A DNA stretch of 64,000 nucleotides, from the NCBI GenBank assembly GCA_902500055.1, contig GCA_902500055.1_4131.1. The stretch is one strand, 5' to 3'. The DNA comes from Escherichia coli (GTDB lineage Bacteria > Pseudomonadota > Gammaproteobacteria > Enterobacterales > Enterobacteriaceae). This document shows, piece after piece, positions 2,072 to 34,952 of the stretch; the stretch's first letter is position 1, and every line of letters begins with the position of its first letter. The position numbers and the translations under genes are program-made. A model generated the notes under the pieces. It saw nothing but the letters and a program-made list of their open reading frames with translations. It searched no databases and was not told the DNA's origin.

Positions 2072-2658
2072 TGGATATTCCTTAATGGTTAATCATCCAT
2101 CTCTTCGAGATGTCTGTTCGCTTCTAATACTACGTATTCTACGCGAATGATTAATAACTGTCAAGGACTTTTAATATTGACGGGATTTGAGGAAGGGATT
2201 TTTCTTCCCCCCCCAAGGAGGGAAATTTGACGCTGATGGTATCAGAGCTATTGCATTGAAGATTACTCATAACGAGTGCGAAAGCGGGTCATCCTGTTTC
2301 TCTCTACTTCAGTTTCATATGACGGTCTACACTTTTAAACATAGTGTATCTTCATTAAGTATCTATGCAATCAAATACTTAATGTGAGTACTCAAATTTT
2401 GGACGCAACTTTCCTGTACAAAATTCGATAACTCTCCCTTAGATAATTCGTAAGGTGTTATCCTTATATGTCTATCAAGGAACCACCAGCTATCCTAACG
2501 TGGTTCTTTATACAGCCGCATTGCCGTGAGGGGTTCAAACTATGCCCACATCTAACGGGTTTCTTTTGCTGTTCGCACTGTCGGACTGCTCAACTGCCCT
2601 CTACGTTTTCGAGTGGATCAGGTACATGAATATCATGCCAACAGAATTGTACAAGATA

Positions 2659-2687
2659 ATTATATCACAAACTTTTACTTCATCCCA
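2659..2687 (-). promoter_or_regulatory. extended -10 promoter candidate
   Basis: Minus strand TGTGATATAAT with poor -35; points into the ORF-free island 2072..2650. Confidence 0.35.
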
Positions 2688-2688
2688 T

Positions 2689-2720
2689 AAAAAAAGGTTG
2701 GCATAAGCCAACCTTTTTTC
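2689..2720 (-). terminator. rho-independent terminator (bidirectional hairpin)
   Basis: ggttggc-ataa-gccaacc stem-loop flanked by A-run and T-run, directly after the sigma gene stop. Confidence 0.7.
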
Positions 2721-2721
2721 T

Positions 2722-3687
2722 TTAGAAATCTTCGTATTCGTACCCTTTTGCAAGTACTAACTTCTTAAGCTTTTGCATAGCTTCACTGTACTTTCGGTGT
2801 ATTGATGAACGGGATTTAACATATTTTCCATTATCATCAACAAAACCATTATCAGCAATCTCACGAAGCGTTTCAGGTTCATATTCACCTAGACCATGAA
2901 CACGCTGGATAATCTCACGTTCTTTAGTACTCAATTCGTTAGTCAGTTCATTGATAGCATAACGTAAAGGTGCACGGATACTATCAACATTGAGGTTAAA
3001 ATCAGAAGCAGGTGAATGAATAATGTCACCTAATGTACCATCTGTAACACCGTCTAATGGTGCATCCAGCGAAGTGTATTCGCTTTGAAATAACAAACAA
3101 TTATTAACATGCTGAATCTCAATCCCAGTACCCTCTGAGATTATTTCAGGAGTTGGGCGAACACCATGTTTACGCATATATTCCTGACAGAATCTTTTTA
3201 CTTTGATCTTATGAACACTCATATAACGTGGGAAGTGTACCATATAGTTAGCGTCAGAACTTTCGTTATAGACTGTCATGTAAATACTAGAAGAAGCATA
3301 GGTAATGAACTTAACATTCTTATTAAGATCAAAGGTTTTTAGTGCTCTCATGAACCCCTCAACACCATATGAAATCTTATCTTCAAATGGGATATAACAA
3401 GTACATTTACTTGCTACATCAATAATCAGTCCATAATTGTAACGAACTAACAGTTCAGTGTTTTTCTTTACATTGATACCAGCTTGAATATCACGAATTA
3501 GATCTTCATTGGAAACATTTGGTGGTCGCTTAAGTGTAATATTATATTTGAAACTGCTTTGTACTTTACCTTCATTTTCATCTTTATCTTCAACGAAATC
3601 TAAGGCTTCTAGTGTGTTGACTTCTTCATTAGCAAAACATTCATCCAGAACTTCTTCGGCAATTGTATTTAAATCAAGCTTTTTCAC
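2722..3687 (-). CDS. RNA polymerase sigma factor, sigma-70 family
   Basis: Region 2-like YGLIIDVASKCTCYIPFEDKISYGVEGFMRALKTFD and region 4-like EREIIQRVHGLGEYEPETLREIADNGFVDDNGKYVKSRSSIHRKYSEAMQKL. Confidence 0.8.
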   Translation of the reverse strand: MKKLDLNTIAEEVLDECFANEEVNTLEALDFVEDKDENEGKVQSSFKYNITLKRPPNVSNEDLIRDIQAGINVKKNTELLVRYNYGLIIDVASKCTCYIPFEDKISYGVEGFMRALKTFDLNKNVKFITYASSSIYMTVYNESSDANYMVHFPRYMSVHKIKVKRFCQEYMRKHGVRPTPEIISEGTGIEIQHVNNCLLFQSEYTSLDAPLDGVTDGTLGDIIHSPASDFNLNVDSIRAPLRYAINELTNELSTKEREIIQRVHGLGEYEPETLREIADNGFVDDNGKYVKSRSSIHRKYSEAMQKLKKLVLAKGYEYEDF

Positions 3688-14970: not shown

Positions 14971-15672
14971 TTATTTACGATTCCTTGCGGAGTTTTTATT
15001 TCTTGCTCTAAATGTCGGTGTCATTGAATGACAATTCGGACAAAGAATTTTTAAATTCGATAGGTCATTATTTGTTGCATCACCATCAATATGTTCAACT
15101 TCGGTAAGGACTGCACCATCAACTGGATGACGTTCATCCCATCCACAATCTTCACATGCAGTTCCACGTGTTTCATGTAGGTATCTTCTCACATAATTAC
15201 TAATTTTGCAAGTCTTACCAGTACAACCCAGTTTATCACCAGCAAGCCAAGACTTAACATAAGTGTCATATTGGTGCTGTTTATGGCATTTCGAATCACA
15301 ATATTTCTTATCTGTTTTTCCTTTAGGTATAAATGTATTACATGATAAACAGTACTGATCCTTCACCATCTCACCTGTATGTCGGTTATAACCTTTATTA
15401 TTATAACTAGCAGCACAAGATTGATTGCAAAATTTCTTTACTTCAACCCCTTTACAAAAAGGTATTGAGTTATGACACATCAAACACAACGTTGGATTTT
15501 CATTATAATATCTTTCACGAAATTCTTTATTAAGATTCGACAATGTAAATCCATACTTTAATAGTATTGTATTATAAGAAGGTAGTTCTTTACATTCATT
15601 GATATCTTTTTTGGTTATATTTGATTTTTTATTTTTGTATAGATTGTACATAATCTCTTTCATAACATCCAT
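14971..15672 (-). CDS. HNH endonuclease with Cys-rich zinc-finger region
   Basis: CEDCGW...EVEHIDGDATNNDLSNLKILCPNCH HNH motif plus several CxxC pairs. Confidence 0.75.
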   Translation of the reverse strand: MDVMKEIMYNLYKNKKSNITKKDINECKELPSYNTILLKYGFTLSNLNKEFRERYYNENPTLCLMCHNSIPFCKGVEVKKFCNQSCAASYNNKGYNRHTGEMVKDQYCLSCNTFIPKGKTDKKYCDSKCHKQHQYDTYVKSWLAGDKLGCTGKTCKISNYVRRYLHETRGTACEDCGWDERHPVDGAVLTEVEHIDGDATNNDLSNLKILCPNCHSMTPTFRARNKNSARNRK

Positions 15673-17397: not shown

Positions 17398-18102
17398 TTA
17401 TAAGCCATGTCTTTTCAAAAATCTAGCAAACACATTTTTGGAAGCACCATAACTTTCATATATACTAACTTTTTTCTCACCATTATTCAAACGTTGTTTG
17501 ATATCTTCTATGTTATCTTCTAAACGTTTTACGTTTGCAAATTTCTTAGATGGTATATTATTTTTGGTTCTATAATTCAGTACTGAACCTGAACTAATAT
17601 TCATTATTTTAGCAATTTCAGTATCTAATAAACCTTGGTTAATATATTCTTTTACCTTTTCATAATCAACAGATGTTTCACCACCCTTTGTATTAGAAGG
17701 AGGCTTGACCATTTTTTGTGAACACTCAACACTACAATATTTTGTATATGATTTCACTTTAGTATGCCTACGGGTAAATTCCATATTACAACAAGCACAT
17801 ACAAATGAATCATATCGTGCTTGCACACCATTCTTATGTGTTTTATAACGATGTTCATCAACATGAAGTATTTGCAAATTTGACAAATCATCATTTGTGA
17901 AATCATTATCAATGTGGTCTGCTTCTTCAGACTCAGTTAAATATCTACCTTCTTGTACTGCTAATAGATATCTGGCATATTGAGTACTGCTTCTATCAGT
18001 TGGAGAATTATAAAGTATTACAGTTCTTCTACCTTCAGGGTTTATCTGTATATACCCATTCTCCCAATCATTACTGTATGGATATTCTAATTTTATTTTC
18101 AT
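17398..18102 (-). CDS. HNH homing endonuclease
   Basis: EEADHIDNDFTNDDLSNLQILHVDEH HNH core with basic HTH-like C-terminus. Confidence 0.7.
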   Translation of the reverse strand: MKIKLEYPYSNDWENGYIQINPEGRRTVILYNSPTDRSSTQYARYLLAVQEGRYLTESEEADHIDNDFTNDDLSNLQILHVDEHRYKTHKNGVQARYDSFVCACCNMEFTRRHTKVKSYTKYCSVECSQKMVKPPSNTKGGETSVDYEKVKEYINQGLLDTEIAKIMNISSGSVLNYRTKNNIPSKKFANVKRLEDNIEDIKQRLNNGEKKVSIYESYGASKNVFARFLKRHGL

Positions 18103-28586: not shown

Positions 28587-29030
28587 TTACTCCTTAAAGT
28601 AGATATCACGAATTTGCTTAATCATCTCTAACTCTTGAAGTCCTATCATACCAAAGTTTTCTTGTACTGTCAACTGTTGGAAGTACATTTCCTCTAAATT
28701 ATCATAAGGAATATCCACTAATGATAAAGGAACACGTTCACCACGGTATAGCAGATCTTCAACTAAAAGTTTTAAAATCATGATAGAAAATGAATCTTTT
28801 TGGATATGAAATTTGTAAAATGTCTGGTTAGTACTGAACATTGTATTTGATGGATTGAAACCCATTTCAACAAATACTGTATCTTTATCATTATGTGTGA
28901 CATATGTACATCTTGAATTCGCAAGAACTTTAGATTTTGGGAAATAAAAATCACCCATCAACTTCTGTCGTTTCCAATCCTCGTATACAACTGGATGCTT
29001 AACCTTCTTCAATTGGTGCAGTACTGTCAT
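28587..29030 (-). CDS. EExFQxST-motif paralog family protein
   Basis: C-proximal LEEMYFQQLTVQENFGMIGLQEL. Confidence 0.55.
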   Translation of the reverse strand: MTVLHQLKKVKHPVVYEDWKRQKLMGDFYFPKSKVLANSRCTYVTHNDKDTVFVEMGFNPSNTMFSTNQTFYKFHIQKDSFSIMILKLLVEDLLYRGERVPLSLVDIPYDNLEEMYFQQLTVQENFGMIGLQELEMIKQIRDIYFKE

Positions 29031-29410
29031 AGTTTTTTCCAGTCCAATGAATCGAAATCGATTTGCTCAGGATTATCAACAGCGACAACTCGTGCATTAT
29101 GAAGAGTTTCAAAGTAGCCGTTCCACGGTGTTCGTAATGGAACTGTCACATCGCCAACTTTAACCAAGAATGAATATTCTGGTGATATTGGGTCAAACCA
29201 CTCTTTTTGTTTAGCATTTTCAACGATAGTTTCGTGTTCTTTAGTATAGCAATTATCTTGCTTCATATAAAACACCCAATGCTCTTTTAGGCACTGTAAA
29301 GCAGCAACTGCTTCCTCTTTAGAAGACCATTGAATATCAATTGTATTAAGAACGTCATAACAATTTTCAGTGTCCCCTGTAGTGTAATGTACTTCAATGC
29401 TGTATTTCAT
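29027..29410 (-). CDS. hypothetical protein
   Basis: 127 aa ORF inside the paralog array but lacking the motif. Confidence 0.5.
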   Translation of the reverse strand: MKYSIEVHYTTGDTENCYDVLNTIDIQWSSKEEAVAALQCLKEHWVFYMKQDNCYTKEHETIVENAKQKEWFDPISPEYSFLVKVGDVTVPLRTPWNGYFETLHNARVVAVDNPEQIDFDSLDWKKL

Positions 29411-29865
29411 TAATCATCGCCTTTTAGTAATTTACAAATTTCAATCATATGATAATAACATGTATTCCAAAATTGTCCATTAGTACTTCCAACATCATGC
29501 ACAGTACTTTGTTGGAAAACATATTCATCGTTGAACATCATTTTAATATCATCAATGTAAAATTCTGGTTTTGAATCATTATTGTATTCAATACTCGTTT
29601 CACCATCTGGATCAAGTGAAATTGATGATATGTCGTGAATTCCTCTCGGATTTGTTGGATAAATTCTCAACGTAAGAGGATAGAAGTCTGGATCGGTTTC
29701 ATAAGTATATTCGATTATGTAATAACCATCACCAGTAATTGATTGATATTTAAATGTAGTTTCAATTGAATTTGAGATGTTAAATCCCAGTTTCTTTATC
29801 TCATGTAGATGTGATAATATTTTATGTAAAGATCCTAAAACATGAATCAAATTATCAATTTTCAT
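29410..29865 (-). CDS. EExFQxST-motif paralog family protein
   Basis: C-proximal NDEYVFQQSTVHDVGSTNGQF. Confidence 0.55.
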   Translation of the reverse strand: MKIDNLIHVLGSLHKILSHLHEIKKLGFNISNSIETTFKYQSITGDGYYIIEYTYETDPDFYPLTLRIYPTNPRGIHDISSISLDPDGETSIEYNNDSKPEFYIDDIKMMFNDEYVFQQSTVHDVGSTNGQFWNTCYYHMIEICKLLKGDD

Positions 29866-30404
29866 TTACGATCCTTTGAAAAGTTCAGTTTAAAAGTTTT
29901 ACCAAATTCCATTGTAGCTTTACCCAGATTGTTAATATTTTCTTTCAACATTTCTTGCATCTTCCTAATACTTTCAATCCAGGCTTCTTCTTCGATACGA
30001 AGAATTGGTCGCAATCGTTCCTGAATATCGTTAAAACGTGTATTGAGTTCAACCAATGATTCATATGTGAAATCTTTCATATCGATAATAGTACTTCTTT
30101 GAAAGAATTCTTCTTCAGACAAATTACTTAAAATGATTTTATCACGACCAATAGATAATGTCAATTCATCATCTTTATTTTTTTTAATTACAATACTAAT
30201 AGGTGTTTTTAATGTAATGCAAATATCATGATTATTAAATGTTTCAGTTTGGTTTGACATTCTGAATTGAAGTTTCCCAGATAAAGCATGTACTGGTGAT
30301 GGTTGCTTTTTACCAGTAATAACATCTTCCCATGAATCGAGAATATTATTAATAATTTTAACATAAGGAATTGGCATATATGCACCTATGAAAAATCCAC
30401 GCAT
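29862..30404 (-). CDS. EExFQxST-motif paralog family protein
   Basis: C-proximal SEEEFFQRSTIIDMKDFTYESL. Confidence 0.55.
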   Translation of the reverse strand: MRGFFIGAYMPIPYVKIINNILDSWEDVITGKKQPSPVHALSGKLQFRMSNQTETFNNHDICITLKTPISIVIKKNKDDELTLSIGRDKIILSNLSEEEFFQRSTIIDMKDFTYESLVELNTRFNDIQERLRPILRIEEEAWIESIRKMQEMLKENINNLGKATMEFGKTFKLNFSKDRK

Positions 30405-30419
30405 TGCGTGGATTTGTAA

Positions 30420-30950
30420 TTATTCAAGTATAGTAATTTCAATTAAACGAATTTCGATAAACTCGTTTTCAGTTTCCCATGACGTGCCAAATTTCTTTTC
30501 AAGTTCAGATTTCACATCACTTTTAAATTTTCCCATAGTATTAGGAATAATTTGTTTGGTTAATTTGTCGTAACCACAATAAAACATAGGTTTCTCCCTT
30601 CGAGATATTAGCTGAACAAAATCTTTTGGATATGCAGGTATGTTATGCATCACTTCATGAATACACTCAGTACTTGAATCTTGTACTTTGTACATTACAT
30701 TAAGTTTACCTCTGAAATTTGCGGTCATATCAACAATAGTTCCTTTACCCGATTTAAGTAAAGTTCCATTCTTTGAATGAGAGCAATAAAATACCTCATC
30801 ACCAATATTAGGATAATACAAATTAAATTCTAATTCAGATTTTACAGCCAGACGTTTGAAACTTTCTGCACGTTTTATATAAGTTTGGTGTTTGTTTATG
30901 TTCAAAAGAATATATCTCGTAGTAAGTGTGATATAACTGGCATAGTCCAT
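30420..30950 (-). CDS. hypothetical protein
   Basis: 176 aa ORF; start overlaps the methyltransferase 3' end. Confidence 0.5.
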   Translation of the reverse strand: MDYASYITLTTRYILLNINKHQTYIKRAESFKRLAVKSELEFNLYYPNIGDEVFYCSHSKNGTLLKSGKGTIVDMTANFRGKLNVMYKVQDSSTECIHEVMHNIPAYPKDFVQLISRREKPMFYCGYDKLTKQIIPNTMGKFKSDVKSELEKKFGTSWETENEFIEIRLIEITILE

Positions 30951-31762
30951 CCATTCCCAAGCATTTTGTATGCTTGTGTTGAACTACTAACTTTGAAGTA
31001 GTTTACATCAATTCCTTGCAACATGCAACACTCTTGTACTGTTAAATGACGATAGTCCACATTTCGCTTACCATGTTCAATAAGGAAATCCCTATCGATA
31101 TCAGGTTCTTTGAAAACAATTTGTCTTCTTGATTTATTAAAGTACTGGTTACAATCACCACCTTTAAAATAGTTAGCATCTATACAGTACGAAGCGGTTC
31201 TGTCAGTGTACCAACCATCTTCAATAATATCTTGAAGTTTAGGTGCATTGGATAATGCAGGTGGTATAAAAAGCTTATCAGTACTGTACCAGTAATATCT
31301 CTGCCTGAAGTGAGGCGTATAATGCTGGGAGTTTATCAGTACTGGTGCAACACCAATCTCTTTGTTGAATATATCCAATGATTCTTTTTTCATTTTAACA
31401 TTCTCAAACAAAAAATTCAAATTGGGATTTAAACTTTTTATGTGATTGAAAATGTCCATCATTGTGTAAAATAACATACTACGTGGATCTTGTAATCCTA
31501 ATTGTTTCCCAGCCGTTGATAGTCCTTGACATGGACTACCCCCGATAAGTAAATCAATTTTATCCCACTCAATATCCCATTCTCTCCATTTAGTTACATC
31601 ACCCAATTGGGTGATATCAGGAAAGTTAGCTTGGGATTCAGCTATTGCGTACTTGTCAATTTCGGATGAATAATATTTTTCAACAGGGATGCCAGCATCT
31701 TTTAATGCCATGTATCCCACACTCATCCCATTAAAAAGAGATAGTACTCGGATAGGTTTCAT
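30902..31762 (-). CDS. DNA (cytosine-5)-methyltransferase
   Basis: Motif I LFNGMSVGY, motif IV GGSPCQGLS, motif VI ENV, C-terminal LTVQECCMLQG and YKMLGNGWTMPV. Confidence 0.8.
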   Translation of the reverse strand: MKPIRVLSLFNGMSVGYMALKDAGIPVEKYYSSEIDKYAIAESQANFPDITQLGDVTKWREWDIEWDKIDLLIGGSPCQGLSTAGKQLGLQDPRSMLFYTMMDIFNHIKSLNPNLNFLFENVKMKKESLDIFNKEIGVAPVLINSQHYTPHFRQRYYWYSTDKLFIPPALSNAPKLQDIIEDGWYTDRTASYCIDANYFKGGDCNQYFNKSRRQIVFKEPDIDRDFLIEHGKRNVDYRHLTVQECCMLQGIDVNYFKVSSSTQAYKMLGNGWTMPVISHLLRDIFF

Positions 31763-31814
31763 ATAAAATCCTTTTTATATTGTTAAGGTACTATAATATA
31801 TTATAGCATCTTAT

Positions 31815-32105
31815 TTAGAAATCTTCCAAACTTTTTTCATCACACCATCGTGATGTACAGATGATTGCAGATGCCATAATTGAAGCACTTGCACGTCCTC
31901 CACCGAGTAAGTACTGGCTAATTACACCAATCATATTGAACACTTTATCATACTCGGTTAGTTGTTCAAAACCTTTCTTCCAATGCTGATATTCTTCTTC
32001 TGTGACATTAAACTCACCATCAAGTTCCTTTAAAATCTTTTTAAGCACAGCACTATGTTCACTCATCATCATCTCCATATCGTTCGTCATAAAAATCATC
32101 ATCAC
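31815..32105 (-). CDS. hypothetical protein
   Basis: 96 aa ORF. Confidence 0.45.
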   Translation of the reverse strand: MMMIFMTNDMEMMMSEHSAVLKKILKELDGEFNVTEEEYQHWKKGFEQLTEYDKVFNMIGVISQYLLGGGRASASIMASAIICTSRWCDEKSLEDF

Positions 32106-32419: not shown

Positions 32420-32860
32420 TTAATTGAACTCTACTTCTGGGTAATGATTATAGAACATCTCACGAACTGCGTCAAGATGTTCTTGAAATTGTTTTATATC
32501 TTCTAATGATGGTGCATCAATAACAGTACTAAGTTGAAACAACGATTCTTCTGTGTTATATAGTGACATATCAAATGAGTTATTGTTGTCATCAGTTATG
32601 ATATTATCACAAATTTCGTAAGTGTCAATACAAACATCATCAAGTGTTGTATTATCATATACAGTGTATACGAATACAAAAATAAAAGAAGAATGTTCTT
32701 TACCATAACGCGGTGGGTCATATGTCACATAGCATTTGTGGTCAAATGTATCGAGTTCCATAGACACCACCCCAGCTTCACGATATTCATTAGTTTCACT
32801 GGTAAGATCCGGTATTGATGTTATCGAAAGTAAGTGGAGAAATTTACTTGGATTTAGCAT
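32420..32860 (-). CDS. EExFQxST-motif paralog family protein
   Basis: C-proximal TEESLFQLSTVIDAPSLEDI. Confidence 0.55.
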   Translation of the reverse strand: MLNPSKFLHLLSITSIPDLTSETNEYREAGVVSMELDTFDHKCYVTYDPPRYGKEHSSFIFVFVYTVYDNTTLDDVCIDTYEICDNIITDDNNNSFDMSLYNTEESLFQLSTVIDAPSLEDIKQFQEHLDAVREMFYNHYPEVEFN

Positions 32861-33315
32861 TTCACCACCATTGGATTTTGCGACTGTATATTAAAAAGGG
32901 ATAATACAAAAGTACTCAATTTTTCGAAACAATCTACTAATACATTTAACTCATCATAACTAACACCAATTTCACGAATAAGCGATTGTTGAAAGAATCC
33001 TTCTTCGGTTAACGTTAAACTACTAACCTCAGTTATGTTATAATAACTGTGGGATGTTGTGGTTGATATTAGTTGTATTGCAATCGTATCTGATGTTGTG
33101 TTGTACAGATATAAATATTTTGTTTTTCTTTCCAATGGATCTATACATGAAAGATCGATCATGTCATAGGTTTTTCCAATAAAAATATTACAATCATCTG
33201 ACAATTCACAACAAATGCGTATATGTTCTTTCGGGTCATGAACACGTTGTGTGTCAAATTCACATGACATTGCAATTTCAAAATGATTTTTTATTTCGTC
33301 AACATTCATCTGCAC
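32854..33315 (-). CDS. EExFQxST-motif paralog family protein
   Basis: C-proximal TEEGFFQQSLIREIGVSYDEL. Confidence 0.55.
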   Translation of the reverse strand: MQMNVDEIKNHFEIAMSCEFDTQRVHDPKEHIRICCELSDDCNIFIGKTYDMIDLSCIDPLERKTKYLYLYNTTSDTIAIQLISTTTSHSYYNITEVSSLTLTEEGFFQQSLIREIGVSYDELNVLVDCFEKLSTFVLSLFNIQSQNPMVVKC

Positions 33316-33683
33316 CCACCATTAATTCTTATATTTGTATAGTTTAATGCTTTTTTAATAATACCAATTTCTGTAATTCCTATTACATTTTTCTCAATCA
33401 ATGACAATTGGAATAGTTCCTCTTCGGAAATATCAATACTGTGGATTCTTGTACAATAATCGTTGAAGTCATATACATATCGTATTGTATAGTCGTTTAT
33501 AGAAACTGATACAATTGCAATCCCATCATGGATGTAAGTTAGTTCATTTGAGTATCTATTAAAAATTAACCTATCTGGTGAACCTATTGGTAGTTGAAAT
33601 GTATTTCTAGTATCTTGAACAATAACAAAATCATCATCTATATTTCTACTCAGAACACCCAAAATATCATATATAGTAGTCAT
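33306..33683 (-). CDS. EExFQxST-motif paralog family protein
   Basis: C-proximal SEEELFQLSLIEKNVIGITEI. Confidence 0.55.
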   Translation of the reverse strand: MTTIYDILGVLSRNIDDDFVIVQDTRNTFQLPIGSPDRLIFNRYSNELTYIHDGIAIVSVSINDYTIRYVYDFNDYCTRIHSIDISEEELFQLSLIEKNVIGITEIGIIKKALNYTNIRINGGCR

Positions 33684-33684
33684 G

Positions 33685-34089
33685 TTATTCTTTACCTTCA
33701 GCAGTTCTGATAATTTTCATAACTTCTCTGGATAGTGCGTATATTTTTTTATAGTACTCAAATGTAACTGAACCAAAATCATTAATAGTACTAGCCATGA
33801 AGAACGATTCTTCTGTATATAGTTCATTTGACAAAGCAACCAGTTCTTGGTGAAATTTTGCGTCCTTCCAATAACGAAATTCAAAAACAAATTGTCCGTC
33901 ATGACCGACTCTACAACATTCAGAACGATCACTGTCTACACAGCTAAACACAATATCCCTTTCAGAGTCGTACCAGATATTTCCAATATTTGTTTCAATA
34001 ACAGCATAATCAATTTTTTTAGAATTTGGAATTAAACCTTTTTTCACCAGCACTAAACTGGTATTATCAATATCTAGTAAACTTACCAT
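33685..34089 (-). CDS. EExFQxST-motif paralog family protein
   Basis: C-proximal TEESFFMASTINDFGSVTFEY. Confidence 0.55.
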   Translation of the reverse strand: MVSLLDIDNTSLVLVKKGLIPNSKKIDYAVIETNIGNIWYDSERDIVFSCVDSDRSECCRVGHDGQFVFEFRYWKDAKFHQELVALSNELYTEESFFMASTINDFGSVTFEYYKKIYALSREVMKIIRTAEGKE

Positions 34090-34090
34090 A

Positions 34091-34501
34091 TCAATTCCCC
34101 ATTACTAAAGTGTTTTTAATCTCCAACAATTCACTATACATATTCTTCAATTGTAATATATCTTCAAAAGTAATACCACCAAGATCATCAACTAATGAAC
34201 GTTGGAATAAAGATTCACTTGTTTGTAATGTATCTAAATCGGTGATTTTTAATAAAGAACTTGGATTAAGTGTTTCGACTAGTAGTATGTTTTTGTATGG
34301 TACATATGTGATCTTGATGTTCTTTTTATAATTAATCTTATAAAATCGCATAATTGACGATTCATCACTTAGTTGGATAATTGGGTCGTCTTGATCATTA
34401 GACCACCATACAGTACTAGTCATATGATTGACGTGGTGGTTCAATTCTGATATGTCCAAATCTAAAAAATATTTTAGTTCATTGTGTAAATCTAAACTCA
34501 T
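34091..34501 (-). CDS. EExFQxST-motif paralog family protein
   Basis: C-proximal TSESLFQRSLVDDLGGITFEDI. Confidence 0.55.
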   Translation of the reverse strand: MSLDLHNELKYFLDLDISELNHHVNHMTSTVWWSNDQDDPIIQLSDESSIMRFYKINYKKNIKITYVPYKNILLVETLNPSSLLKITDLDTLQTSESLFQRSLVDDLGGITFEDILQLKNMYSELLEIKNTLVMGN

Positions 34502-34556
34502 AAATTTATCCTCAATGCAGCATCATCATGTATTGTAGGATAAACCCACAATAATG

Positions 34557-34952
34557 TCAAGATGTGAAATAATTATACCAGTAATATAGTTCTTTTAATT
34601 CTTCAGTACTGAACAATACTTCTTCTATTGTAGATTGTTGAAAGTGATATTCATCATTTAGATACATAGAAATATTACTATATACTTTCCTATTGTATTG
34701 ACATAAAAAAGAAGTTTTTTGATTAATGTATTCCGTAAATGTTAATTTATCTAACTCAATATCGAATGATAATTTAATAATATGACTATTATCATTTACA
34801 TACATTAGTTTCTTTGAAAAATGATCAATTGTAATATATTCTTTATGAGAGAACTGAAATATATTATTAAATTTATTACCATTTGTGCTTCTAAATTTTT
34901 CAAGGTAATAAGAAAGTGGTTTAATTATTGAAGTTCCAATATTGTTCTTCAT
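34557..34952 (-). CDS. EExFQxST-motif paralog family protein
   Basis: C-proximal NDEYHFQQSTIEEVLFSTEEL. Confidence 0.55.
   Translation of the reverse strand: MKNNIGTSIIKPLSYYLEKFRSTNGNKFNNIFQFSHKEYITIDHFSKKLMYVNDNSHIIKLSFDIELDKLTFTEYINQKTSFLCQYNRKVYSNISMYLNDEYHFQQSTIEEVLFSTEELKELYYWYNYFTS

What the first reader, a model, noticed from the sequence alone, without database searches (positions are those of the whole stretch)
30902..31762. Compact C5-cytosine methyltransferase embedded in the paralog array
A complete but short (286 aa) Dcm-type methyltransferase with motifs I, IV, VI, IX and X and a minimal target-recognition region, with no cognate restriction endonuclease nearby. This is consistent with an anti-restriction role; its specificity is unknown.
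Basis: partly seen in the sequence, partly recalled or inferred. Interest (0 to 1): 0.5.

Follow-up and report, generated by a model that had tools for sequence, protein, structure and literature searches.

The report
Orphan phage cytosine methyltransferase, mosaic allele
This is a real but already-annotated DNA cytosine methyltransferase of a jumbo E. coli phage; the unreported detail is that this copy is a recombinant patchwork whose most divergent patch sits exactly where sister phages carry a selfish intein.

Summary
The ORF at 30902-31762 (-) is real and encodes a 286-aa C5-cytosine DNA methyltransferase. It passes the curated Pfam and NCBIfam cut-offs and keeps every catalytic motif.

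The window comes from an Asteriusvirus jumbo coliphage (121Q/PBECO4/G17 group). The orthologous gene is annotated in more than 30 GenBank records, and three genome papers already call it "protective methylation". The finding itself is therefore correct but ordinary.

No restriction enzyme was detectable nearby. It is not an E. coli Dcm ortholog.

- **Specificity hint.** A related phage, RaK2, which carries an ortholog, was reported to contain 5mCpG, but the data were not shown.
- **Mosaic allele.** Against 121Q the flanks are about 100% identical, yet 153 mismatches fall inside the gene, in two replaced blocks.
- **Intein link.** Block B1 starts about 30 nt upstream of the catalytic Cys78 codon. 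Five sister phages carry a LAGLIDADG intein at exactly that position (P77|C78). This window's allele is intein-free and differs from the intein's target DNA at 9 of 24 positions.

Target specificity and any role in evading restriction remain untested.

The parts
30902..31762 (-). C5-cytosine DNA methyltransferase CDS (286 aa plus TGA); ortholog of 121Q gp91
   Evidence: ORF. PF00145 and TIGR00675 above curated cut-offs. phrog_116, E 8.9e-59. AF2 model pLDDT 93.3. 100% identical to database protein P0001.
31529..31531 (-). Codon of catalytic Cys78 (TGT) in motif IV (GGSPCQ). The boundary 31531/31532 is the position where sister phages carry a 340-346 aa LAGLIDADG intein. It is empty here.
   Evidence: Sequence. 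Intein maps between P77 and C78 in UE-S1, ph0011, JNE01, TH47 and A4. Intein domains Hint_2 and LAGLIDADG_3 are above Pfam cut-offs.
31347..31563 (-). Block B1 (gene nt 200-416, aa 67-139): catalytic loop, helix C, strand 5 (motif VI) and helix D. A replaced, highly divergent patch that spans the intein homing site from about -30 to +185 nt.
   Evidence: 77/217 mismatches to 121Q against 1/215 in the next segment, Fisher P 1.7e-25; pS 0.75, dN 0.32. 65-67% nt identity to every other Asteriusvirus allele examined. No phage record carries it; the listed matches are 70-72% identical, and six unlisted records fall in the 80-90% band.
31132..31346 (-). Segment M (gene nt 417-631, aa 140-210): motif VIII and the conserved first half of the TRD (YCIDANYFKGG...KSRRQ). 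Identical to 121Q/G17.
   Evidence: 100% nt identity to 121Q and G17, 98% to UE-S1. TRD residues invariant across the family.
30981..31131 (-). Block B2 (gene nt 632-782, aa 211-261): variable second half of the TRD plus motif IX. A second replaced patch, of the UE-S1/ph0011 type.
   Evidence: 99% nt identity to UE-S1/ph0011 and 62% to 121Q/G17/TH47. pS 0.89, dN 0.32 against 121Q. Larger family members carry their TRD insertions at this site.
31800..31829 (-). Sigma-70-like promoter candidate TTGGAA-18 nt-TATAAT with a TG extension, in the 52-nt gap upstream of the gene
   Evidence: 10/12 match, TG present. Promoter-like hits in this AT-rich region are no more frequent than in shuffles, so the match alone is weak. 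The element is identical in 121Q and UE-S1, and TGCTATAAT is retained in the diverged JNE01 upstream region.
31769..31774 (-). Ribosome-binding site AAAGGA, 6 nt upstream of the ATG
   Evidence: Sequence. AAGGAT is conserved upstream of the orthologs in 121Q, UE-S1, JNE01, A4, GAP32, XbC2 and Muenster.
30420..30905 (-). gp92 homolog (161 aa from TTG 30905; the ORF is open up to ATG 30950). Its start overlaps the methyltransferase stop (T-TGA), so it is probably co-transcribed and translationally coupled. Function unknown.
   Evidence: 121Q gp92 annotated the same way. P0124 starts at the equivalent residue. Parts of it are homologous to the gene immediately downstream of the methyltransferase in GAP32, XbC2 and Muenster. 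No family or structure hit. AF2 model unusable, pLDDT 45.7.
30393..30415 (-). GC-rich hairpin (AAATCCACGCA-ATG-CGTGGATTT) followed by T-run: candidate intrinsic terminator closing the methyltransferase-gp92 unit
   Evidence: The G17 and UE-S1 records annotate a terminator at the same place.

Best explanation
The ORF encodes a stand-alone phage SAM-dependent DNA C5-cytosine methyltransferase.

Shown:
- It is a full-length member of the C5-MTase family with every catalytic residue intact, including the Cys78 nucleophile, the ENV motif and R153/R155.
- It has a compact DNMT3-like architecture.
- It has been under purifying selection.
- It has no detectable restriction partner.

Inferred:
- It is transcribed from its own promoter together with the overlapping small gene gp92.
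- It methylates newly replicated phage DNA by the standard base-flipping, covalent Cys-C6 mechanism. Progeny genomes are then protected from host restriction enzymes whose sites contain its target.
- The target is probably short and possibly CpG-containing. This rests on the reported 5mCpG in RaK2 DNA and on CpG enzymes being the nearest structures.

The allele in this window (shown): it is a patchwork made by recombination among co-circulating Asteriusvirus phages.
- 5' end: TH47-like.
- Segment M: 121Q-like.
- B2 and 3' end: UE-S1-like.
- B1: unlike any deposited phage.

B1 brackets the exact spot where five sister phages carry a LAGLIDADG homing-endonuclease intein, immediately before the catalytic Cys.

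Inferred from this: double-strand breaks and co-conversion linked to intein homing make this gene a recombination hotspot. This allele's diverged target sequence probably makes it refractory to that endonuclease.
For: Family and catalytic integrity:
-.
- PADLOC best hits are type II and orphan MTase models.

Architecture:
- AF2 pLDDT 93.3.
- The Foldseek PDB top 50 are all DNMT3A/B/C, TM about 0.80.
- Profile against PDB: DNMT3B 127 bits, M.HhaI 110 bits.

Orphan status:
-.
- All neighbours are 'hypothetical' in 121Q, G17 and UE-S1.
- A distant homolog, P0032, also sits alone in a phage-like 152-kb contig.

Transcription unit.

Methylation and CpG:
- The RaK2 paper reports restriction resistance and bisulfite-detected 5mCpG.
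- RaK2 carries the ortholog.
- In the window, CpG O/E is 0.75 and TpG/CpA is 1.25.

Mosaic:
- Flanks are about 100% identical to 121Q, while 153 mismatches lie inside the gene.
- Segment identity matrix.
- Synonymous sites are saturated in B1 and B2, with dN about 0.32.
- B1 and B2 assort independently.

Intein:
-.
- Homing-site mismatches at -12..+12 are 9/24 for the window and 2/24 for 121Q.
Against: - No methylation data exist for any Asteriusvirus (literature searches).
- The RaK2 evidence is 'data not shown'. The RaK2 enzyme is only about 68% identical and has a different catalytic-loop block (PCT plus an 8-aa insertion).
- CpG-containing palindromes are depleted, not spared: GCGC 0 observed against 17-25 expected, CCGG 0.48, CGCG 0.60. 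Full CpG protection would not predict this.
- From established knowledge, CpG-methylated DNA is restricted by McrA, McrBC and Mrr in E. coli K-12. Yet sister phages Sharanji and slurp01 were isolated on MG1655.
- Restriction enzymes are hard to recognise by homology, so 'orphan' is not proven.
- The link between the mosaic and the intein is positional and correlative. B2 lies about 400 nt from the intein site and is also replaced, so ordinary homologous recombination between diverged alleles could produce the whole pattern.
Confidence: 0.75

Rival explanations
1. The mosaic structure has nothing to do with the intein. The methyltransferase alleles of co-infecting jumbo phages are simply old and divergent. 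Ordinary homologous recombination at conserved motif-coding stretches shuffles them neutrally.
For: - B2, about 400 nt from the intein site, is replaced as sharply as B1.
- Block borders coincide with highly conserved motif-coding DNA (end of motif IV region, PVLINSQ, KSRRQ, FKVSS), which offers natural crossover points.
- Type-A B1 blocks also occur in more distant jumbo-phage homologs, P0008 and P0011, with no intein known there.
Against: - Flanking genes show almost no variation between the window and 121Q over about 15 kb, while this one gene has at least 3-4 breakpoints in 861 nt.
- The sharpest and most variable block starts within about 30 nt of the intein insertion point.
- All five intein-bearing alleles share one B1 haplotype (79-100% nt) although their inteins are only 53-54% identical between lineages. 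This is the expected signature of co-conversion or hitch-hiking.
Confidence: 0.3
2. The enzyme's main role is not evasion of host restriction. It may mark phage DNA as self for a phage-encoded nuclease or for packaging and regulation, or it may methylate host DNA.
For: - The genome relies heavily on site avoidance rather than modification: GCGC absent, GATC at 0.42 O/E, several 6-bp palindromes absent.
- The gene is dispensable enough to tolerate inteins and block swaps.
- It sits among early-looking small genes of unknown function.
Against: - No nuclease partner was found.
- The enzyme is conserved across Asteriusvirus, Mimasvirus and Alcyoneusvirus and in thousands of phage contigs as a solitary gene. 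This is the usual pattern for anti-restriction orphan methylases.
- RaK2 DNA was reported resistant to methylation-sensitive enzymes.
Confidence: 0.12
3. It is the methylase half of a type II restriction-modification pair whose endonuclease is one of the unrecognised small neighbours, for example gp92.
For: - gp92 overlaps the methyltransferase stop codon and appears co-transcribed.
- gp92-related sequence follows the methyltransferase in three other genera.
- Restriction endonucleases often lack detectable homologs.
Against: - gp92 is 161 aa with no nuclease motif or family hit.
- Its domains are rearranged or truncated between genera, down to 69 aa in Muenster.
- Distant methyltransferase homologs lack it.
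- A lytic phage gains little from carrying a restriction enzyme against its own target site.
Confidence: 0.04
4. It is a Dnmt2-like tRNA cytosine methyltransferase acting on phage or host tRNA rather than DNA.
For: - These phages encode many tRNAs.
Against: - DNMT3B, DNMT3A, M.MpeI and M.HhaI score as high or higher.
- PDB sequence matches to Dnmt2 cover only the N-terminal half, E 1e-8 to 1e-9 against 1e-24 for DNMT3B.
Confidence: 0.03

Closest known systems
Orthologous 'DNA-cytosine methyltransferase' of Asteriusvirus phages (121Q gp91, PBECO4, G17_00216, phAPEC6, Sharanji 'haeIIIM')
   Same: Same locus, length (286 aa), neighbours, promoter, RBS and terminator. The flanks are about 98-100% identical in DNA. 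It is already interpreted as protective methylation in PMC7247149, PMC11895373 and PMC12805682.
   Different: Only 82% aa identity, because blocks B1 and B2 are replaced. The window-type B1 is absent from all 50,697 deposited phage records. It occurs only in five assembly-derived protein clusters, P0001-P0005.
Intein-interrupted alleles of the same gene (UE-S1 UES1_076, ph0011, JNE01, TH47, A4)
   Same: Same gene and locus. The exteins are collinear with the window protein. B2 and the 3' end of UE-S1/ph0011 are 99-100% identical to the window, and the 5' end of TH47 is 99% identical.
   Different: They carry a 340-346 aa Hint + LAGLIDADG intein between P77 and the catalytic C78, plus a linked B1 haplotype (GGFP|CQAWSVAGKQGGINDPRGMLFHTMVDIY). 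The window is intein-free with a different B1. The intein is not mentioned in the UE-S1 paper and did not turn up in the literature searched.
Eukaryotic DNMT3A/DNMT3B/DNMT3C catalytic domains (de novo CpG methyltransferases)
   Same: These are the best sequence and structure matches among solved structures. The alignment is full-length, with the same domain size (about 285 aa), a short TRD and the GGSPC-type motif IV.
   Different: Only 26-31% identity. There are no PWWP or ADD domains and no DNMT3L partner. The TRD-loop residues that read CpG in DNMT3 are not recognisably conserved in the sequence alignment. Oligomeric state is unknown. Resemblance among solved structures is not a phylogenetic claim. 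Bacterial M.HhaI is only 17 bits behind in the profile search.
Klebsiella phage RaK2 putative DNA methyltransferase (JQ513383.1:166714-167601)
   Same: Ortholog in a related jumbo-phage genus. This is the only member of the group whose virion DNA was examined. It was reported resistant to methylation-sensitive enzymes and to contain 5mCpG.
   Different: About 68% aa identity. The catalytic loop is of a third type (PCT, 8-aa insertion) and the TRD segment is 3 aa longer. The experimental data were not shown.
Bacterial type II C5-methyltransferases M.HhaI / M.HaeIII and orphan CpG methylase M.MpeI
   Different: They have larger TRDs (324-395 aa in total). M.HhaI and M.HaeIII are paired with endonucleases. 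GCGC, the M.HhaI site, does not occur at all in this window, so it cannot be a self-protection target.
Homing elements in other phage DNA methylase genes (ShiLan HNH insertion, PMC11855218; mycobacteriophage methylase inteins, PMC5050341)
   Same: Phage methylase genes are recurrent hosts of homing endonuclease elements. Distant relatives of this intein interrupt methyltransferase genes of Mannheimia, Lactobacillus, Propionibacterium, P1-like and mycobacterial phages.
   Different: The published cases are N6/N4 methylases of actinophages or a non-intein HNH insertion. The case here is a classical LAGLIDADG intein at the catalytic cysteine of a C5 enzyme in jumbo coliphages. The window itself holds the empty, diverged site.

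Membership tests
DNA C5-cytosine methyltransferase (Pfam PF00145 / TIGR00675) | Whole-protein score above the curated cut-offs | tested here: met
   PF00145 117.3 bits (cut-off 22). TIGR00675 109.1 bits (cut-off 100.65).
DNA C5-cytosine methyltransferase (Pfam PF00145 / TIGR00675) | Motif I SAM-binding loop (FxGxG-type) plus motif II/III acidic residues | tested here: met
   F10, G12 and E34 are invariant; G16 and D55 are at least 90% conserved in 77 homologs. They align with DNMT3B LFDGIATG.
DNA C5-cytosine methyltransferase (Pfam PF00145 / TIGR00675) | Motif IV Pro-Cys catalytic nucleophile | tested here: met
   GGSP77-C78-Q79. P77 and C78 are invariant. The codon is at 31529-31531.
DNA C5-cytosine methyltransferase (Pfam PF00145 / TIGR00675) | Motif VI ENV, motif VIII RxR, motif IX, motif X GN | tested here: met
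   E120-N121-V122, R153 and R155, R238/L240/E244, and G269-N270 are all invariant.
DNA C5-cytosine methyltransferase (Pfam PF00145 / TIGR00675) | Two-lobed C5-MTase fold | tested here: met
DNA C5-cytosine methyltransferase (Pfam PF00145 / TIGR00675) | Transfers methyl from SAM to C5 of cytosine in DNA | not testable with these tools
   The only indirect evidence is the RaK2 bisulfite report for an ortholog-bearing phage, with data not shown.
E. coli Dcm subfamily (CCWGG methylase, NF007772) | Subfamily model score above cut-off | tested here: not met
   18.1 bits against a cut-off of 710; only the C-terminal 45 residues match. CCWGG is depleted in the window, O/E 0.56.
Type II restriction-modification system | Cognate restriction endonuclease gene adjacent to the methylase | tested here: not met
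   No nuclease or defence-model hit in the 10 flanking ORFs or in other window ORFs. All neighbours are annotated hypothetical in six related records. Undetectable endonucleases cannot be excluded.
DNMT3 family (eukaryotic de novo methyltransferases) | Catalytic domain most similar to DNMT3 among characterised enzymes | tested here: met
DNMT3 family (eukaryotic de novo methyltransferases) | N-terminal chromatin-reading PWWP/ADD domains | tested here: not met
   The protein is 286 aa. The catalytic domain starts at residue 2 and no other Pfam domain is present.
DNMT3 family (eukaryotic de novo methyltransferases) | CpG specificity and RD/FF-interface oligomerisation | not testable with these tools
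   CpG is suggested only by the RaK2 report. No multimer modelling or assay was available.
Dnmt2 / tRNA-Asp methyltransferase | Dnmt2-specific CFT motif adjacent to motif IX | tested here: not met
   The protein sequence contains no CFT tripeptide. The motif is defined in PMC3227630.
Intein-containing methyltransferase allele | Hint + homing endonuclease insertion within the ORF | tested here: not met
   The window ORF is collinear with the intein-less 121Q protein and has no Hint or LAGLIDADG hit. The intein is present at the same site in L006-L010.

The most novel reading that the evidence does not exclude
Near-isogenic Asteriusvirus phages hold three states of an intein 'homing cycle' at the catalytic cysteine of one gene:
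- Occupied: UE-S1, ph0011, JNE01, TH47, A4.
- Empty and cleavable: the 121Q type, 2/24 target mismatches.
- Empty but diverged: this window, 9/24 mismatches.

Under this reading, the window's B1 block was selected because it makes the gene immune to the intein's endonuclease. B1 covers the DNA-contacting catalytic loop, and B2 covers the variable TRD segment. The swaps may therefore also change the enzyme's sequence or flanking preference, which would couple selfish-element dynamics to diversification of the phage's anti-restriction specificity.
Probability: 0.25. Interest if true: 0.55.

Novelty: already known. Interest (0 to 1): 0.3.

Why it matters
As a gene call it adds nothing. The enzyme is annotated in dozens of genomes and its presumed role has been stated in print.

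Three things could still be useful:
- **An experiment-ready specificity question.** No Asteriusvirus methylome has been published. The one hint, 5mCpG in RaK2, was never shown.
- **A comparator for DNMT3.** A 286-aa, single-domain, DNMT3-like enzyme from a cultivable coliphage would be a convenient minimal comparator for DNMT3 catalytic-domain studies.
- **A natural system for intein homing.** Intein-occupied, empty-susceptible and empty-diverged alleles coexist in genomes that are otherwise about 97-100% identical around the locus. This allows measurement of intein homing, co-conversion tract length and target-site escape in jumbo phages.

Tried and rejected
- **gp92 as a recognisable partner.** No Pfam, PHROG-function or PADLOC hit. 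PDB profile search found only noise, E >= 0.09. Only 4 homolog clusters exist in 5.8 billion proteins. The AF2 model has pLDDT 45.7, too poor for a fold search.
- **E. coli Dcm orthology.** Rejected.
- **Dnmt2-like RNA methylase.** Rejected: no CFT motif and weaker matches.
- **Source genome among complete E. coli assemblies.** No match.
- **Donor of the window-type B1 block among deposited phages.** None found. The listed matches are 70-72% identical. The closest protein-level relatives of the block, P0008 and P0011, are 81-82% identical.
- **Viral structure library.** Only uncharacterised cytosine methyltransferases, no specificity lead.
- **Literature on an Asteriusvirus methylome or an intein in this gene.** Nothing found. 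CBB is reported to have no inteins, and the RaK2 and K64-1 inteins are in terminase.
- **Promoter scan.** On its own it is uninformative: 17 hits against 17.6 expected. The upstream element is kept only because of its intergenic position and conservation.
- **Inferring target specificity from site avoidance.** Inconclusive. GGCC is the only GC-only 4-bp palindrome that is not depleted (22 against 22.6), while GCGC, CCGG and CGCG are depleted. That is too weak to assign a target.
Full report
**1. Observation**

The minus-strand ORF 30902..31762 exists exactly as described: ATG start, TGA stop, 286 aa.

Family assignment:
- Pfam PF00145 at E 1.2e-33 (117 bits, cut-off 22).
- NCBIfam TIGR00675 'dcm' superfamily model at 109.1 bits (cut-off 100.65).
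- PHROG 116 'DNA methyltransferase' at 8.9e-59.

In a 77-sequence alignment of homologs all catalytic positions are invariant:
- F10 and G12 (motif I)
- E34 (motif II)
- P77-C78 (motif IV)
- E120-N121-V122 (motif VI)
- R153 and R155 (motif VIII)
- R238/E244 (motif IX)
- G269-N270 (motif X)

The enzyme therefore looks fully competent. Family members range from 268 to 432 aa. The longer ones all carry their extra residues at one place, between 'KSRRQ.VF' and motif IX. The window protein has only about 22 residues there.

**2. What genome this is, and what is already known**

A 5-kb piece around the gene is 93-97% identical to Asteriusvirus jumbo coliphages: 121Q, PBECO4, G17, Sharanji, slurp01, phAPEC6 and others. 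The gene is the ortholog of 121Q gp91, annotated 'DNA-cytosine-methyltransferase'.

The exact protein is in public databases as P0001, 100% identical. It comes from a 353.7-kb contig and is named 'Modification methylase HpaII' or 'DNA cytosine methyltransferase' by its sources.

Three genome papers mention the gene and attribute protective methylation to it:
- phAPEC6, PMC7247149
- Sharanji, PMC11895373, where it is called 'HaeIII methylase' from an automatic name
- UE-S1, PMC12805682

A survey of jumbo phages also lists C5 methylases in this group (PMC7824862). I found no experimental work on any Asteriusvirus enzyme. The finding as written is therefore correct but already known.

**3. Context**

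- About 108 of 111 non-overlapping ORFs in the window are on the minus strand.
- The 'paralog array' is real. A profile seeded on nine ORFs that share an EE.FFQ.S motif recruits 17 ORFs of about 120-180 aa between 12.2 and 36.1 kb, and none from shuffled ORFs. Members lie immediately on both sides of the methyltransferase cluster.
- None of the ten flanking ORFs has a functional family hit. There is no nuclease or defence-system hit anywhere I looked.
- The right-hand part of the window is a replication module: topoisomerase II subunits, a Dda-like helicase, a clamp loader and TelA.
- The orphan status is thus supported, with the caveat that restriction enzymes are hard to detect by homology.

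The E. coli Dcm subfamily model scores 18 against a cut-off of 710. 'Dcm-type' is therefore true only at superfamily level.

**4. Expression unit (inferred)**

- The 52-nt gap upstream holds TTGGAA-18-TATAAT with a TG extension and an AAAGGA ribosome-binding site.
- The scan as a whole is no better than chance in this AT-rich DNA (17 hits against 17.6 expected).
- However, the element is identical in 121Q and UE-S1, and TGCTATAAT survives in the otherwise diverged JNE01 upstream region.
- The next gene, the gp92 homolog, starts at a TTG that overlaps the methyltransferase stop (T-TGA). A homolog, P0124, begins at the equivalent residue.
- gp92 is followed by a GC-rich hairpin and a T-run at 30393-30415. 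The G17 and UE-S1 annotators also called this a terminator.
- Pieces of gp92 are homologous to the gene directly downstream of the methyltransferase in Mimasvirus (GAP32, XbC2) and Alcyoneusvirus (Muenster), whereas the upstream gene is not conserved.
- gp92 could therefore be a partner, but nothing identifies its function.

**5. Architecture**

The AlphaFold model is confident: pLDDT 93.3, pTM 0.90. Only the catalytic loop (residues about 80-95) is soft.

Comparison with solved structures:
- Sequence: the best matches are DNMT3B and DNMT3A catalytic domains over the full length (E 1e-24). M.HhaI matches only over the N-terminal half (E 1e-14).
- Profile: DNMT3B 127 bits, M.HhaI 110 bits, M.HaeIII 98 bits.
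- Foldseek: the first 50 PDB hits are all DNMT3A/B/C, TM about 0.80.

The enzyme is thus a single-domain protein the size and shape of a DNMT3 catalytic domain, with no PWWP or ADD domains. This is resemblance among solved structures, not a demonstrated sister relationship. KEGG-based pipelines already label such phage genes 'DNMT3A' (PMC11309003).

**6. Specificity and function**

Nothing here determines the target. There is one lead. The RaK2 paper states that RaK2 DNA is cut only by enzymes insensitive to Dam, Dcm, CpG or EcoKI methylation, and that bisulfite sequencing found methylated CpG. Both results are 'data not shown' (PMC3622015). RaK2 carries an ortholog of this gene, about 68% identical at the protein level to the window's enzyme.

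CpG specificity would fit these observations:
- CpG enzymes (DNMT3A/B, M.MpeI) are the nearest structures.
- In the window, CpG O/E is 0.75 and TpG/CpA is 1.25.

Against a blanket CpG methylase:
- GCGC is completely absent: 0 observed, 25 +/- 5 in shuffles, 17 by a Markov model.
- CCGG (0.48) and CGCG (0.60) are depleted. That is unexpected if those sites were protected.
- E. coli K-12 restricts CpG-methylated DNA through McrA, McrBC and Mrr (established knowledge). Yet sister phages were isolated on MG1655.

My confidence estimates:
- The enzyme is an active DNA C5-methyltransferase: about 0.9.
- Its main role is restriction evasion: about 0.6.
- It targets CpG-containing sites: about 0.35.

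**7. The allele in this window is a mosaic**

The window and 121Q are 98.1% identical over 15.7 kb and about 100% identical in the immediate flanks. Yet the two methyltransferases are only 82% identical in protein. Of about 258 mismatches in 15.7 kb, 153 lie in this 861-nt gene, concentrated in two blocks:
- B1: gene nt 200-416, aa 67-139.
- B2: gene nt 632-782, aa 211-261.

The 215 nt between the blocks have essentially no differences. The counts are 77/217 in B1 against 1/215 in between, Fisher P 1.7e-25.

In both blocks synonymous sites are saturated (pS 0.75 and 0.89) while dN is about 0.32. These are old, functional, purifying-selected sequences brought in by recombination, not substitutions that arose in place.

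Comparison with seven other Asteriusvirus alleles shows a patchwork:

| Segment | Closest allele | nt identity |
|---|---|---|
| 5' 199 nt | TH47 | 99% |
| B1 | none (65-67% to every other allele) | - |
| M (middle) | 121Q / G17 | 100% |
| B2 | UE-S1 / ph0011 | 99% |
| 3' end | UE-S1 / ph0011 | 100% |

- B1 and B2 types assort independently among genomes.
- The window-type B1 is not present in any of 50,697 deposited phage records. It occurs only in the protein clusters P0001-P0005.

In structural terms:
- B1 covers the catalytic loop, helix C, the motif VI strand and helix D.
- B2 covers the family's variable TRD segment and motif IX.

**8. The intein connection**

While checking gp92, I found that the UE-S1 'cytosine specific methyltransferase' CDS is 626 aa. 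It contains a 340-aa insertion beginning CFPAGT..., containing a TxxH block, two LAGLIDADG motifs (FVGRFMGDG, FIKGYMDADG) and ending ...VVHN. It lies between P77 and C78, so the methyltransferase's catalytic cysteine is the intein's +1 nucleophile. Pfam confirms Hint_2 and LAGLIDADG_3 above their cut-offs.

Distribution of the intein:
- ph0011 carries the same intein (99.7% identical).
- JNE01, TH47 and A4 carry a lineage that is 53-54% identical, at exactly the same position.
- All five intein-bearing alleles share one B1 haplotype (79-100% nt), although their inteins have diverged far more and their B2 types differ. This is the pattern expected if flanking extein DNA is co-converted with the intein.

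Match to the intein-host exteins at positions -12..+12 around the insertion point:
- 121Q's intein-less allele differs at 2 of 24 positions, so it is a plausible homing target.
- The window allele differs at 9 of 24 positions, and at 20 of 56 over -20..+36.

The window's B1 starts about 30 nt upstream of the insertion point and runs about 185 nt downstream.

I therefore infer that endonuclease-induced breaks and their repair make this gene a recombination hotspot. I also infer that the window carries an empty site that is probably refractory to cleavage.

This is positional and correlative evidence. B2's replacement 400 nt away shows that ordinary recombination between diverged alleles also operates here. 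I give the purely neutral explanation about 0.3.

Prior knowledge:
- Neither the UE-S1 paper nor a literature search mentions this intein.
- Homing elements in other phage methylases are known (PMC5050341, PMC11855218).
- Distant relatives of this intein interrupt methyltransferase genes in many unrelated phages.
- The phenomenon is therefore of a known kind.

**9. Verdict**

The gene is a DNMT3-like orphan phage C5-methyltransferase of unknown, possibly CpG-related, specificity.

The added value of this re-examination is the mosaic, intein-site-centred nature of this particular allele, plus a few side observations: total GCGC avoidance, the gp92 coupling, and the family's TRD insertion hotspot. 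The overall interest score given is 0.3. It would be somewhat higher for people working on intein homing or on minimal DNMT3-like enzymes.

Noticed in passing
L006 (Escherichia phage UE-S1, ON568341.1) 2400-3419; same site in L007, L008, L009, L010: A 340-346 aa Hint + LAGLIDADG intein interrupts the orthologous methyltransferase between P77 and the catalytic C78 in five Asteriusvirus genomes. There are two intein lineages, 53-54% identical to each other. GenBank annotates the whole 626-632 aa product as methyltransferase, or as 'hypothetical protein' in JNE01. The intein is not mentioned in the UE-S1 paper.
   Followed up: yes
whole window 1-64000; also L001-L010: The tetranucleotide GCGC is completely absent: 0 observed, against 25.2 +/- 5.4 in dinucleotide shuffles and 17 by a Markov-2 model. 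It is also absent from about 65 kb of related loci, including Mimasvirus and Alcyoneusvirus phages. GATC is at 99 against 234 expected, CCGG at 11 against 23, CCWGG at 24 against 43. CTGCAG, CAGCTG, GGTACC and GGATCC are all absent. GGCC is not depleted (22 against 22.6).
   Followed up: partly
whole window: GTAC is strongly over-represented (380 against 270 expected, z +9.4). One copy sits in the palindromic TATAATATATTATAGTACC element just upstream of the methyltransferase. It might belong to a phage-specific regulatory motif.
   Followed up: no
window 12208-36146 (-), e.g. 28587-29030, 29410-30404, 32420-34952: There are seventeen small ORFs (about 120-180 aa) forming one very divergent paralog family with a conserved EE.FFQ.S motif about 85-115 residues from the N-terminus. 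None has a Pfam or functional PHROG annotation. A related ORF, with EESFFQSS, follows the methyltransferase region in Klebsiella phage Muenster (Muenster_437).
   Followed up: partly
window 14971-15672 (-) and 17398-18102 (-): Two paralogous free-standing HNH homing-endonuclease genes (PADLOC HEase models, E 2e-11 and 5e-5) lie inside the small-gene array. Homing endonucleases are thus active elements in this genome beyond the methyltransferase intein of its relatives.
   Followed up: partly
window 30420-30950 (-): The gp92 homolog overlaps the methyltransferase stop codon (TTG at 30905 within T-TGA; the ORF is open to ATG 30950). It appears to share the methyltransferase's promoter and terminator. 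Its two halves are separately homologous to the genes immediately downstream of the methyltransferase in GAP32/XbC2 (residues 37-119) and in Muenster (residues 124-175). Its function is unknown and its structure could not be predicted (pLDDT 45.7).
   Followed up: partly
proteins P0045, P0071, P0097, P0098, P0112, P0117 (homologs from metagenomes): Larger members of the same methyltransferase family (372-432 aa) all carry their extra 80-170 residues at a single position, between 'KSRRQLVF' and motif IX. This corresponds to the start of block B2 in the window protein. That position is the family's variable target-recognition insertion point.
   Followed up: partly
proteins P0016, P0022, P0026; L004 2501-3388 (Muenster); RaK2 JQ513383.1:166714-167601: A third version of block B1 exists in Alcyoneusvirus-type enzymes. 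Motif IV reads GGSPCT instead of PCQ, and the catalytic loop carries an 8-residue insertion (KPD.NG.GGT). This is the version present in RaK2, the only relative with reported 5mC data.
   Followed up: no
whole window: CpG is under-represented (O/E 0.75) and TpG/CpA over-represented (1.25). This resembles the deamination signature of CpG methylation, but it is also common in AT-rich genomes without methylation.
   Followed up: partly
phage records listed (for example P1-like RCS47 and Ro157c2YLVW dmt, Mannheimia phage 587AP2, Lactobacillus phage Nyseid, Propionibacterium phage B22): Distant relatives (24-30% identity) of the same intein lie inside DNA methyltransferase genes of many unrelated phages, and also in thymidylate synthase and anaerobic ribonucleotide reductase genes. 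Some RefSeq product names under the intein matches differ from the GenBank names for the same phage genes.
   Followed up: no
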